Made by a program: the position numbers and the translations under genes. The notes beneath the pieces were generated by a model. The model had not been told where the DNA came from. It searched no databases and saw nothing but the letters and a program-made list of their open reading frames with translations. From NCBI GenBank assembly GCA_951406725.2, contig OX597840.1:28024001-28088000 (forward strand): a stretch of 64,000 nucleotides of DNA, given 5' to 3'. The stretch is from Octopus vulgaris (taxonomy: Eukaryota). The stretch's first letter is position 1. Each line of letters starts with the position of its first letter. Positions 22,030-55,990 of the stretch are shown here, piece after piece.

Positions 22030-22620
22030 TCTTTCTCTGCTTGTTTTTTTCTGTGTACCTCTCTGTAGAAGAGCGTAGGCTCGAAATGTAAACGACTTTG
22101 TCTATTCCTGAACGTTATACTAATACATCCGTTTGTTTTGTACACCACCTATTTCTTTACTACCCACAAGGGGCTAAACACAGAGGGGACAAACAAGGAC
22201 AGACATAGGTATTCCGTCAATTACATCGACCCAGTGCGTAACTGGTACTTAATTTATCGACCCCGAAAGATGAAAGGCAAAGTCGACCTCGGTGGAATTT
22301 GAACTCAGAACATAAAAACAGACGAAATACCTATTTCTTTACTACCCACAAGGGGCTAAACACAGAGAGGACAAACAAGGACAGACATAGGTATTAAACC
22401 GATTACATCGAACCTAGTGCGTAACTGGTACTTAATTTATCGACCTCGAAAGGTTGAAAGGCAAAGTAGACCTTGGCGGAATTTGAACTCACAACGTAAC
22501 GGCTGACGAAATACCGCTAAGCATTTCGCCCGGCGCGCTAACGATACTGCCAGCTCGCCGCCTTAGTTTTGTACACCACCTGTCTTCGTCTTTTTTTTTT
22601 TTTTTTGTAAACTCTCCTAT
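22030..22620 (+). mobile_element. Short Penelope-like repeat (variant hammerhead 22058-22095) interrupted by a SINE
   Basis: CTGTAGA-A-GAGCgtagGCTC-GAAAT-GTA; sequence resumes after the SINE and ends aactctcc(TA)n. Confidence 0.7.
22151..22565 (-). mobile_element. SINE family A dimer (head plus two bodies) with 16-bp TSD
   Basis: gttttgtacaccacct at 22135-22150 and 22566-22581. Confidence 0.92.
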
Positions 22621-23726
22621 ATATAGGTACAGGCTTGTAGATACATGCTTTCAAGTTCAGTTCCAACGCGCGGTCTGCTATAATGAAGGCGCCTGGATTA
22701 GCAACCCCTCGTGTGTGTGTGTGTGTGTTGAACTGGTGACCTTGCGGTGCTTGTTCCGATTATGTACGTCCTGAGTTCAAACCCTACCATAACCTATTTG
22801 GTTGATATACTGGACCTGTCGTCCAGTTTAACACCACCACCAGGCACCTTACTTATTTAAGCTCCATAACCCCTATGGCGCTTGAGCCCTCGACCAGTTT
22901 CCTCAAATGCTCATGTCTCAGGGAATCTTTTCTACTAGCCTCCGGTTCGATCCCTGCTCCATCCCTTCAGATTTCCTTGCACCCCTGGTATGTCTCCCTA
23001 AAATAAGGCCTTCTGTTCCCAAGTCTTGTTCCTTTCGAATTATCATTGGTGCTTTTGTAACTTTGCTTTGCTTTTATTTTATCTATGTAGGAGCCCTTCT
23101 TTCCCAACTCTGCCTGAGTATTCCGTAATGGATCAATGATATTTGTTTGGCCCGGTAAGCCCTTCGTTCCGTATCGTGTAAAAAAAACCATCGACGGCTA
23201 TTTTCCACTCTTCTTGTCTTCCGGCTATCTCTTCTGTTTCGCGCCTATTCGATCCTTGCTGTTTTGTTTTAAGGGGTGGGGCAGTTCTATCTCAGTATTC
23301 CCCGACGGAAAGCCTTCCTCCCACAGATTGAGTTGTTTTCGAATTGCGATCAATAGACGCAGGCGTGGCTGTGTGGTAAGTTGATGGACTTATAAGCGTC
23401 AGGTAGAAAGATACCAGAGGAGAAAAAGCACAAAACACCTAGATAGCAGCTTAACCTTACATAACATGCATTCGATGTATCTTTTGAAACATATGTAATA
23501 CGTAACTACCTACAGGATTCCCTTCAGCCAACACACACAGACACACAGACACGTATACATACACACATATAGATGTACAGGTACACTGTATACATTCATA
23601 CCTATAAGAACTGGAATCGATCTGATGGACCAAAGATAAAAATAAAACAATGCCTGGACACGTGATGTCCCAGCATCCTGAAACGGCCGTCGCGCACTGC
23701 AGACAAAACCAAAGAAATGACAAAAA

Positions 23727-24290
23727 CCTACTACTATTACTACTACTACTACTACTACTACTACTACTACTACTACTACTACTACTACTACTACTACTAC
23801 TATTACGACTACTACTACTACTACCACTACAACCACTACCGCAAGCGCTATTATTACAACCACCACGACTACTACTACCAAGTCCACCACGACCAACACC
23901 ACTACTACTGCTACAACTACCATTACTATAACTATTACTACAGCCACCACCACAACTATTACCACCACCACCACTAATACTACTACTACTACTACGACTT
24001 CCACGACCACCACCTCAGCTACCATTACCACTACTACTACTACAACCACCACCAACACTACTACGTCCCTACCATTATAATTACTACTAGTACTACCACC
24101 ACTACAACTACTACTAACACCACCACCACCACTGCTACTACTACTACTACTACTATTACTATAACTATCGCCACCACCACCATCACCACAACTACCACTA
24201 TTACTACTACTATCACCATCACCACCACCACTACTAATACTACCACCACCACCACCACCACCACCACCACCACCACCGCTACTGCTACAG
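23727..24290. repeat. (CTA/CCA)n
   Basis: Seen directly. Confidence 0.95.
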
Positions 24291-24529
24291 TGACATGTCT
24301 CGCGACATCTATATTAAGATGAATGTCCGCGGCAGAGAGGGGAGCGGGGACGGGGGACGGGGGACGGGGCTTTTATTTTTATTGTGAAATCAACGATTTG
24401 AACTGTCAAAGAATTTGTTTGATCAACGCTTAAGACTCATCATTTCCACCCATCCACCCACCCACCCCTTGTCCACCCGGGACGGGGGGGGACGAGGAGA
24501 CGGTAGGGGTGGCGGTGTAGAAAATGGAC

Positions 24530-54021: not shown

Positions 54022-54200
54022 GGGAGAGTTTACGAAAAATCAAAAGACAAAGACAGGTGGTGTACAAAACAAACAGATGTATTAGTATAACGCTCAGGAA
54101 TAGAAAAAGTCTTTTACGTTTCGAGCCTACGCTCTTCTACAGAAAGGGACACAGAAAAAACAAGGAGAGAAACAAGGAGAGAAAAAAGGAGAGAAAAGAA
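54022..54200 (-). mobile_element. Short Penelope-like repeat with variant hammerhead (54111-54146)
   Basis: Minus strand CTTT-CTGTAGA-A-GAGCgtagGCTC-GAAAC-GTA-AAAG; 3' end abuts (TA)n. Confidence 0.7.
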
Positions 54201-54499
54201 AGTGTGCGTGCGTGTGTGTAAGCGTTTATATATATGAATAAATGGATGGCTGTTCTCTTTTTCATTTATTTAGGGTAAATTTTGACGTGTGTCTCACTTG
54301 GTAGCGGGGTTGTGAAGGTAAGTGTCTTGGTATAACAGCCATCCCTTAAATCTTAAGAAGGTCTAGCAGGTTTTCGTAGCCCCAGATATCGCGATCATTT
54401 GCAGTGTATATATTAAGGATTTGCATTCTTTCCCTAAGAACCCAAGTTCAGCTATACTTTGCTCCAGATGCGGCGGTATGTATCCTGTTGCTCCAGTAA

Positions 54500-55088
54500 C
54501 CCTTTCTCTTATAAGCACATGACCTGAAATTTTTGGGGAGGAGATGAGTCGATTTCATCGACCCCTAGTGTTTCACTGGTACTTAATTCATCGACCCCGA
54601 AATGATGACAGGTATAGTCGACCTCAGCGGTATTTGAACTCAGAACGTGAAGACAGACGCACTTCGTCCAGCGTGCTAAAAAGTCTTTTTCTCCTCTAGG
54701 CTCAAGACCCGAAACTTTTTGGAGGAGAGGGGGCTAGTCGATTAGATCGACCTCAGTACTCAACTGGTACTTAATTTCTCGACACCCCAAAAGGATGAAA
54801 GTCAAAGTCGCCCCCAGCGGCATTAGAAGCCAGAACGTGAAAACAGTCGAAATATCTATTTCTTTACTACCCTCAAGGGGCTAAACACAGAGAGGACAAA
54901 CAAGGACAGACAAACGGATTAAGTCGATTATAACGACCCCGGTGCGTAACTGGTACTTAATTTATCGACCCCAAAAGGATGAAAGGCAAAGTCGACCTCG
55001 GCGGAATTTGAACTCAGAACATGAAAACAGTCGAAATATCGCTAAGCATTTCGTCCGGCGTGCTAACGTTTCTGCCAGCTACCGCCTT
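54500..55088 (-). mobile_element. Cluster or concatemer of SINE family A copies
   Basis: Three core segments; junction gaaatatctatttcttt at about 54850. Confidence 0.85.
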
Positions 55089-55990
55089 CTGTTGCTCCAA
55101 TAATAATAGGTATGATGCTAAAAGTGTATCTTAGGTACTGGATTTCCAAACTCGTTATCAATGTTCCATAGATGTCCTCCTTCTCTTGTATTTTTCTAAC
55201 CACATTTGTGTCCAGAGGGCAGCTGATTTCCACAACAGAACATATCTTTTCTTTGTGGTCCCATGGGGCTAAAAAACAGAGAAGACAAACAAGAACAGAC
55301 AGATGGATTAAGTCGATTACATCGACCCCAGTGCGTAACTGGTACTTATTTAATCGACCCCGAAAGGATGAAAGGCAATGTCGACCTCGGCGGAATTTGA
55401 ACTCAGAACGTAGCGGCACACGAAATACCTATTTCTTTACTACCCACAAGGGGCTAAACACAGAGAGGACAAACAAAAACAGACAGATGGATTAAGTCGA
55501 TTACATCGACCCCAGTGCGTAACTGGTACTTATTTAATCGACCCCGAAAGGATGAAAGGCAATGTCGACCTCGGCGGAATTTGAACTCAGAACGGAGCGG
55601 CAGATGAAATACATATTTCTAGAAGAAATACCACAAAGCATTTTGCCCGGCGTGCTAACGTTTCTGCAAGCTCGTCGCCCTACATCTCCATTGATGTTGA
55701 GGTTTCCTGTAACACTGAACAGTTTGGGAGTTCGAACATCTTACTCATTGAGTTCTTGTTGTGACCAGTCCAGAAAACCAGAAGACGGACACAGCAAAGG
55801 TGTTGTGTGCAATATGCTTTGTATAAGCTGAGTGTCCTGATAACCATATTCTCTTCATTCTCCCGAGTTATATATTTCTCGTCTTCTCCTTATTTCTGGG
55901 GTCTGTCATATTGGACTGTCATTCTTAGATTGTCTAAGATACCTTTAAATTGTCACCTGACTGTTGAGGTTGTCTCATTAAGTCGTTCAT
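55089..55990 (-). pseudogene. R4/Dong-like LINE fragments flanking a SINE insertion
   Basis: 55680-55860 reads AYTKHIAHNTFAV...GFLDWSQQELNE*DVRTPKLFSVTGNLNINGDV (post-RT region); 55089-55255 reads KICSVVEISCPLDTNVVRKIQEKEDIYGTL...IIPIIIGA (RLE C-terminus). Confidence 0.75.
55258..55680 (-). mobile_element. SINE family A dimer
   Basis: Two bodies joined at gaaatacctatttcttt (about 55422-55438). Confidence 0.9.

What the first reader, a model, noticed from the sequence alone, without database searches (positions are those of the whole stretch)
22135..55680. Head-plus-(body)n SINE concatemers share one precise junction at independent loci
Seen: at 22151 (x2), 34117 (x6), 39325 (x4), about 54850 and 55258 (x2), the SINE 3' end aaagaaata joins the same internal point ggtatttcgtc, about 47 nt into the element, so repeated units lack the A-box head. 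The unit ends are complementary (TATTTC...GAAATA). The dimer at 22151 lies within a 16-bp TSD and the hexamer within a 12-bp TSD. Inference: either reverse transcriptase repeatedly jumps or rolls on a processed, end-paired or circular RNA of about 185 nt (retrozyme-like rolling-circle retroposition of a SINE), or a multimeric master copy exists.
Basis: partly seen in the sequence, partly recalled or inferred. Interest (0 to 1): 0.7.

Follow-up and report, generated by a model that had tools for sequence, protein, structure and literature searches.

The report
Self-nesting SINE builds head-body arrays
Copies of one short jumping element are stacked tail-into-body at the same internal point at five places in this animal genome stretch, likely because its read-through RNA matches older relatives and inserts into them, with later DNA duplication lengthening the stacks; a circular RNA is not needed but not excluded.

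Summary
Of 16 type-A SINE tails at 7 loci, 11 run into element position 47. The same junction shows in contigs of other runs: clearly in two species labels, weakly in a third.

The arrays are not uniform concatemers. Last units carry a different tail at three of five arrays. At 54850 the first and last units share a 19-nt tract with two private changes and then diverge 17%. Other nested joins fall at head positions ~16-21. Hexamer units 2-5 are 0.5-2% apart but ~10% from unit 1, with an alternating C/T.

A tail variant pairs with the junction-spanning sequence. Ends at foreign sites partly match the junction's continuation. The majority unit has no T4 terminator.

Best reading (0.5): junction-bearing copies are read through, the RNA primes on homologous resident relatives, and DNA-level duplication extends the arrays. 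Rolling on one circle fits poorly: no ribozyme, weak end-pairing, mosaic units. Both junction classes sit at loop edges of the tRNA-like head, so RNA cleavage or circles stay possible. The architecture is known from reptile and clam SINE arrays; the self-targeting route was not found in my searches. No RNA test was possible.

The parts
22135..22150 (.). TSD copy; its element-side end reads AGGT, overlapping the tail end and the first 3 nt of the junction continuation
22151..22331 (-). dimer unit 2, headless type-A body and tail
22332..22565 (-). dimer unit 1, tRNA-like head plus type-A body and tail
22566..22581 (.). TSD copy, 16 of 16 identical
34105..34116 (.). TSD copy of the hexamer, 12 bp
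34117..34348 (+). hexamer unit 1, head plus type-A body and tail, 9-10% from units 2-5
34349..35092 (+). hexamer units 2-5 (186 bp each, 0.5-2.2% apart); start like unit 6, tail alleles like unit 1, C/T alternation at unit position 229
35093..35258 (+). hexamer unit 6, body with type-B tail (inferred resident copy)
35259..35283 (.). TSD copy followed by a few tail-like letters and a partial third copy of the TSD
39250..39324 (+). 5' part of a second SINE-like family interrupted by the tetramer
39325..40110 (+). tetramer: head unit 39325-39563 and headless units 39564-39747, 39748-39927, 39928-40110; 6-11.5% apart, mosaic of allele lineages; no TSD
40111..40162 (+). 3' part of the interrupted family; first 7 nt match the junction continuation at 5 of 7
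54485..54499 (.). TSD copy of the trimer, 14 of 15 identical
54500..54682 (-). trimer unit 3, type-B copy starting at head position ~18-21 (inferred oldest resident)
54685..54856 (-). trimer unit 2, headless, type-B tail, B-box region decayed; first 19 nt identical to unit 1 including two private changes
54857..55088 (-). trimer unit 1, head plus type-A body and tail
55089..55103 (.). TSD copy of the trimer
55247..55429 (-). dimer unit 2; 0 of 100 differences from unit 1 over positions 66-165, then 13 of 25 in the last stretch of tail
55430..55681 (-). dimer unit 1 with head
55606..55632 (-). mini-insert at the same point: positions 47-54 doubled around a few letters ending in the last 7 nt of the A tail
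13314..13325 (.). TSD copy (10 of 12 match 13752-13763)
13326..13558 (+). head plus type-A unit whose tail joins an older copy at head position ~16
13559..13745 (+). decayed relative with another tail (inferred resident)
13752..13763 (.). TSD copy
17973..18204 (+). the only type-A monomer in the window, between microsatellites

Best explanation
These arrays are a tRNA-headed SINE nested into its own relatives at one internal point, likely because read-through RNA from junction-bearing copies anneals to homologous resident copies and primes insertion there, with later DNA-level duplication likely adding units. Steps: (1) shown: the type-A tail joins position 47 and the majority unit holds no T4 run; (2) inferred: Pol III therefore reads across the junction, so the RNA carries body sequence behind the tail; (3) inferred: a partner LINE nick in a resident copy at or after position 47 is primed by that homology, cDNA crosses the templated junction, and its far end pairs with the resident's own head or body, leaving head-(new unit)-(resident unit) inside the resident's old TSD; (4) inferred: such loci become both new sources and new targets; (5) likely: unequal exchange between neighbours gives young near-identical runs such as hexamer units 2-5. 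The first junction probably arose at the loop of the long head hairpin; how is not shown.
For: Last units differ from internal ones in 3 of 5 arrays. At 54850 the A and B units are identical for 19 of 19 nt, with two states found in none of the other 21 aligned units, then differ at 17 of 100 (P about 0.03). Outer TSDs enclose whole nests at 4 of 6 nested loci. Presumed residents carry more private changes at 54850 (9 vs 2 of 95) and 13329 (10 vs 3 of 95); p 0.058 and 0.081, combined 0.03. A mini-insert with doubled positions 47-54 sits at 55606-55632. A tail variant in 5 units at 2 loci completes a 9-bp stem with junction-spanning letters, 6 of them beyond the tail; adding the 9 next letters gains 5.9-6.8 kcal in 3 of 3 such units tested and 0.2-3.6 in 4 of 4 others. 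That variant is ~55%, 63% and 5% of laid depth in X13, X7 and X14, and run-over contigs are 3.2%, 3.4% and 0.6%. Ends at foreign targets match the continuation at 4 of 7 and 5 of 7 (P 0.005), 14 of 21 with the divergent third end. Hexamer ages are uneven and alternate C/T. A control family in the same window gives 21 hits and no such array. Precedent: downstream target sequence on the RNA raises R2Ol insertion from 12% to 96% (PMC6530143, passages) and aids SART1Bm and R1Bm (PMC7265360, passages).
Against: All mechanism rests on 7 loci of one window; no assembly was held and the one raw-read run laid only 4 of 12,895,792 records. The age test shows no asymmetry at 3 of 5 pairs (hexamer 2 vs 3, 22151 3 vs 0, 39325 1 vs 0), and 'private' changes in B/C copies are inflated because few B/C copies were available. 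The foreign-end test was chosen after seeing the ends and left out two ends (one in a microsatellite, one in a SINE). Both junction classes lie at loop edges of the predicted head fold, which RNA cleavage plus template jumping predicts more directly. The 22151 dimer and the 39325 tetramer could be whole multimer RNAs copied into new sites. No partner LINE, nick site or transcript was seen; 27 of 131 ORFs scanned gave no RT hit.
Confidence: 0.5

Rival explanations
1. End-to-end template jumping: SINE RNAs are cut in head loops like tRNA fragments, and the reverse transcriptase jumps from the 5' end of a cut RNA to the 3' end of another, making the junction afresh in single insertion events.
For: The unit starts exactly at the 3' edge of the 4-nt loop of an 11-13 bp hairpin predicted in 7 of 8 heads folded. 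The second junction class (positions ~16-21) lies at the D-loop-like hairpin seen in 3 of those 8 folds. Mixed tails and mixed lineages within arrays fit. A lone copy at 47913 is 5'-truncated near position 44-48. Template jumping by R2-type enzymes is recalled, not read here.
Against: It does not explain the shared private 19-nt tract between an A unit and a B unit, the 100-nt identity followed by a different tail at 55258, the junction-pairing tail variant, or a junction with 10 extra letters at depth 1694 in X14 against 34-72 for the longer contigs listed.
Confidence: 0.17
2. Whole multimers are copied from multimeric source loci by read-through, without targeting relatives.
For: No T4 run in the majority unit or in the whole hexamer; exact outer TSDs at 22151 and 34117; the tetramer sits in an unrelated family with 3' microhomology; junction forms recur in other runs.
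Against: No two of the 5 arrays share composition; no position-wise clustering in the (unsupported) tree; it leaves the origin of A-into-B nests unexplained.
Confidence: 0.15
3. A unit-length circular RNA (loop cleavage, host ligation) is reverse-transcribed round and round; if primed on a resident relative it would also keep the resident's head and tail.
For: Precise junction at a loop edge; near-identical units 2-5 in the hexamer and identical bodies at 55258; the junction-pairing stem would also form in a circle.
Against: No Rfam family at gathering score in the window and no ribozyme among 5 weak matches in the tetramer; no conserved hammerhead core (1 private match in 6 arrays); circular folds are 1.7-5.8 kcal weaker than linear and end-pairing is at most 0.04; the C/T alternation and mosaic tetramer are not one template.
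Confidence: 0.1
4. DNA-only origin: slippage or unequal exchange between the short match at position 47 and at the tail's end, or between neighbouring copies, with no special retroposition step.
For: Hexamer units 2-5 look DNA-amplified; unequal recombination is the route proposed for reptile and clam SINE arrays (PMC10702118 discussion; PMC11481361 passages).
Against: Simple duplication cannot put a different tail on the last unit or different lineages in neighbouring units; the control family of similar abundance shows no such arrays.
Confidence: 0.08

Closest known systems
SINE-derived satellites (sSat) of squamates, PMC10702118 (read: first fifth of the text, discussion, passages)
   Same: Tandem units shorter than the SINE with a longer terminal unit reaching a SINE end; similar unit across loci; alternating di/trimeric patterns in some species.
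   Different: Here arrays are short, dispersed and TSD-flanked, every internal unit keeps the whole tail, and last units can belong to another subfamily. The paper invokes unequal recombination and repeated insertion at one locus; the words rolling, circular and template switch do not occur in it.
TSD-(SINE)n-TSD arrays of the clam Scapharca broughtonii, PMC11481361 (passages)
   Same: First unit with full head, repeated head-truncated units, one outer TSD, in a mollusc.
   Different: There internal units are also cut at the tail (an internal duplication); here the tail is complete and joins a fixed internal point.
Target-specific LINEs R2Ol, R1Bm, SART1Bm (PMC6530143 and PMC7265360, passages; Anzai 2005 seen only as cited there)
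   Same: Works like the proposed step: RNA read through into downstream target sequence anneals to the nicked target and sets the start of reverse transcription.
   Different: Those are autonomous elements with site-specific endonucleases and host targets (rDNA, telomeres); here the target would be the SINE's own relatives and no specific endonuclease is shown.
Metazoan non-LTR retrozymes (PMC7761336, passages; bioRxiv 10.64898/2026.07.22.740005, abstract)
   Same: Tandem units of 150-300 bp, proposed multimeric cDNA.
   Different: They are defined by hammerhead ribozymes and circular RNAs and are tied to Penelope-like elements; no ribozyme is found here and arrays carry a tRNA-like head.
Full-length SINE multimers (Dip/B1 in jerboa) and dimeric SINEs (Alu), as summarised in PMC10702118 discussion
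   Same: Frequent tandem copies of a SINE; some multimers amplify as such.
   Different: Those units are full length; here later units lack the first 46 nt.

Membership tests
tRNA-derived SINE | Dispersed non-coding repeat of 100-500 nt with many copies | tested here: met
   29 profile hits in the window; 42,431 to 227,485 contigs laid in three runs
tRNA-derived SINE | tRNA-like head with A and B boxes | tested here: inconclusive
   A-like motif in 5 of 7 heads; the strict B pattern matched 0 of 7 (one position off by eye; both patterns recalled); ARAGORN and Rfam call no tRNA; hairpin folds predicted
tRNA-derived SINE | Variable-length TSDs | tested here: met
   12-16 bp TSDs at 4 of 9 loci examined
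tRNA-derived SINE | Tail shared with a partner LINE | not testable with these tools
   No genome held; no RT among 27 of 131 ORFs scanned
tRNA-derived SINE | Pol III transcription | not testable with these tools
   No RNA holder on record; no raw RNA reads
Named SINE family or superfamily (OR1/OR2, CORE, Deu/Nin, Meta) | Sequence match to the published central domain | tested here: inconclusive
   Three motifs occur in no paper text; four motifs are absent from the one searchable MetaSINE supplement; no reference consensus was available, so no name is given
Non-LTR retrozyme | Hammerhead ribozyme in each unit | tested here: not met
Non-LTR retrozyme | Abundant, highly self-paired circular RNA | not testable with these tools
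   Only contigs for RNA-labelled runs; unit fold z +0.48, i.e. no better than shuffles
SINE-derived tandem array (sSat-like) | Tandem units that are part of a SINE, with extended terminal unit | tested here: met
SINE-derived tandem array (sSat-like) | At least four middle units, homogenised | tested here: met
   Only the hexamer qualifies (1 of 5 arrays), units 2-5 0.5-2.2% apart
SINE-derived tandem array (sSat-like) | Long arrays, subtelomeric bias | not testable with these tools
   No assembly
Target-specific retroposon with read-through priming (works-like claim) | RNA extends into downstream target sequence | tested here: inconclusive
   Indirect only: no T4 run, junction-pairing variant, partial matches at foreign ends
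Target-specific retroposon with read-through priming (works-like claim) | Sequence-specific endonuclease | not testable with these tools
   Partner LINE unknown

The most novel reading that the evidence does not exclude
The SINE's tRNA-like head is cut at its extended anticodon-like loop by host tRNA-processing enzymes and the ~185-nt unit is ligated into a ribozyme-free circle, which a LINE reverse transcriptase primes on resident relatives and copies round, so a SINE replicates through a protein-made circular RNA and homes into its own family.
Probability: 0.1. Interest if true: 0.8.

Novelty: new variant of a known kind. Interest (0 to 1): 0.48.

Why it matters
If right, a non-coding SINE has gained a target preference for its own family simply by carrying target sequence on its RNA, with no change in any protein. 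That is a safe-haven strategy known from rDNA- and telomere-specific LINEs, and a direct, repeatable route from dispersed SINEs to nucleosome-sized (184-186 bp) tandem arrays, whose first step is left open in the sSat literature. It is testable with existing assemblies. It would also matter for annotation, since a sizeable share of tails (a rough floor of 16-17% in two runs) run into another copy.

Tried and rejected
NO OUTSIDE LOCI. No genome is held. Five collection scans with tail or body motifs found nothing: metagenome 2, genome 2, viral 1.

READS. Raw-read run X21 laid 4 of 12,895,792 records and is not used. No RNA holder listed; X13 is only guessed to be RNA and is contigs, so it says nothing on expression or circles. 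One search showed 15 of 218 joints, 18 of 1050 loose ends and 40 of 134 variants, and X7 counts are incomplete. A k-mer model for the junction share gave 0.27-1.0 for X13 and X7 depending on an unknown setting, so only the raw ratios 0.17, 0.16 and 0.06 are used, as rough floors per unit and not per locus.

FOLDS AND FAMILIES. The end-paired panhandle was rejected as a strong structure. Ribozyme and tRNA searches were blank. No RT or endonuclease among 27 of 131 ORFs; the rest were mostly microsatellite frames and were not scanned.

TREE. 15 type-A units; B/C-tailed units and the divergent 55258 unit were left out. 0 of 12 inner branches were well supported.

NAMES AND PRIOR WORK. The family name could not be set. 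The host looking like an octopod is a recalled resemblance, not tested. Earlier scan findings: none. Searches for a self-targeting or nested SINE mechanism in print returned only the array papers named; subscription journals are mostly missing, and Ohshima and Okada 1994 was not read.
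Full report
WHAT IS THERE. The window is microsatellite-rich animal DNA (215 tandem rows; GC 37%) with 29 profile hits to one SINE superfamily. Copies share a head and body and carry at least two tails, here called A and B/C. Positions are counted from 39325. Sixteen A-type tails lie at 7 loci. Eleven run into position 47, one into position ~16 of an older relative, one into a TA microsatellite and three into foreign DNA. The junction motif has 0 chance matches in 100 shuffles. 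A second SINE-like family in the same window gives 21 hits and no such array.

IT IS FAMILY-WIDE. Laying contigs on one head-bearing unit gave a loose end at position 47 that reads into an A tail in X13 (175 records, agreement 0.96; organism A) and X7 (435 records, agreement 0.67; organism C). In X14 (organism E) it is not among the six loose ends shown, but 435 of 78,120 contigs run over the stretch's ends, against 1353 of 42,431 and 7667 of 227,485; I infer these are mostly the tail end, since the other end is unique flank. Depth just past the tail is 17%, 16% and 6% of tail depth in the bin 25-33 nt inside the end, a rough floor and no copy number. A second join, tail to head position ~19-21, shows in X7 (6 contigs) and X14 (5 contigs, plus a form with 10 extra letters at depth 1694). 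The raw-read run laid 4 reads and is unusable. Nothing here bears on RNA level, ends or circles.

THE ARRAYS ARE NESTS, NOT COPIES OF ONE TEMPLATE. At 54850, unit 1 (tail A) and unit 2 (tail B) are identical over positions 47-65, including two states seen in no other of 23 aligned units, and then differ at 17 of 100. Unit 2 in turn joins position ~18-21 of a third copy, and a 15-bp TSD encloses all three. At 13329 an A copy joins a decayed relative inside a 12-bp TSD. At 55258 the two bodies are identical for 100 nt but the last tail differs at 13 of its final 25 columns, and the head holds a mini-insert in which positions 47-54 are doubled around the last 7 nt of an A tail. The tetramer mixes allele sets; unit 2 shares two changes with the 55258 locus. 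Residents look older at two pairs (combined p 0.03) but not at the other three, and this test is biased in favour.

THE HEXAMER GREW LATER. Units 2-5 are 0.5-2.2% apart but 9-10% from unit 1. They begin with unit 6's alleles, share unit 1's tail alleles, and alternate C/T at position 229. This is what unequal exchange in an A-B nest followed by two-unit duplication gives (inference; it rests on one alternating site). Similar alternation is reported in snake SINE satellites (PMC10702118 discussion).

THE SOURCE RNA LIKELY CROSSES THE JUNCTION. The majority unit and the whole hexamer have no T4 run; that T4 ends Pol III transcripts is established knowledge. A tail variant at positions 170 and 174, in 5 units at 2 loci, completes a 9-bp stem with letters that span the junction. 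It makes up ~55%, 63% and 5% of laid depth in the three runs, in step with the junction signal; three runs are too few to call this a correlation, and the reference carries the variant. Tail ends at foreign targets match the continuation at 4 of 7 and 5 of 7 letters (P 0.005; post hoc). For R2Ol, SART1Bm and R1Bm, downstream target sequence on the RNA anneals to the target and promotes priming (PMC6530143 and PMC7265360, passages).

MECHANISM. I therefore favour homology-primed self-insertion. Read-through RNA primes on a nicked relative at or after position 47, the junction is templated by the RNA, and the cDNA's far end joins by homology so the resident's head and TSD are kept. This explains the fixed junction without a precise nuclease, the foreign last units, the variable shared tracts and the ever-present head. 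The sequence anatomy is shown; transcription, priming and timing are inferred. Whole multimer RNAs may also be copied to new sites (22151, 39325).

WHAT IT DOES NOT EXPLAIN. Position 47 is the first base after the loop of a hairpin predicted in 7 of 8 heads, and the second join class lies at the D-loop-like hairpin. That points to structure-guided cleavage or nicking at least at the origin, and keeps template jumping (0.17) and a protein-made circle (0.1) alive.

COMPARISON AND VERDICT. Head-plus-truncated-unit SINE arrays are described in squamates (PMC10702118) and a clam (PMC11481361, passages), both ascribed mainly to recombination. Five searches found no report of a SINE targeting its own family by read-through; closed-access papers and unseen supplements may hold one, and the family name is unset. 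Verdict: real, family-wide, a new variant of a known kind; interest 0.48.

Noticed in passing
window 39452-39489: An 18-bp inverted duplication with a 2-nt spacer inside tetramer unit 1, a fold-back copy of the body's own stem.
   Followed up: no
window 35259-35283: After the hexamer's TSD come a few tail-like letters and a partial third TSD copy, like an aborted second priming at the same site.
   Followed up: partly
window 13559-13600 and 54640-54682: Both copies that are joined at head positions ~16-21 have lost about 12-13 nt of the long head hairpin.
   Followed up: no
window 47843-47913 (-): A lone B-type copy is 5'-truncated near position 44-48, the same point as the junction.
   Followed up: partly
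window 4200-4287, 7715-7925, 18418-18527, 49463-49672, 58858-59045: Many copies sit in or beside (TTA)n or (TCA)n microsatellites, hinting at a microsatellite-preferring partner LINE.
   Followed up: no
window 47084-47410: Two copies of the second SINE-like family lie back to back as an inverted pair.
   Followed up: no
window 1769-2323 (+): Weak C2H2 zinc-finger match (E 0.0046, below the curated cut-off) in a stop-to-stop frame.
   Followed up: no
run X14, laid on window 22320-22585: A tail-to-head join at position ~21 with 10 extra letters at depth 1694, suggesting a different amplified junction in that species label.
   Followed up: partly
run X21: A raw DNA run with the same species label laid only 4 of 12.9 million records on a very high-copy repeat; label or filter problem.
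   Followed up: no
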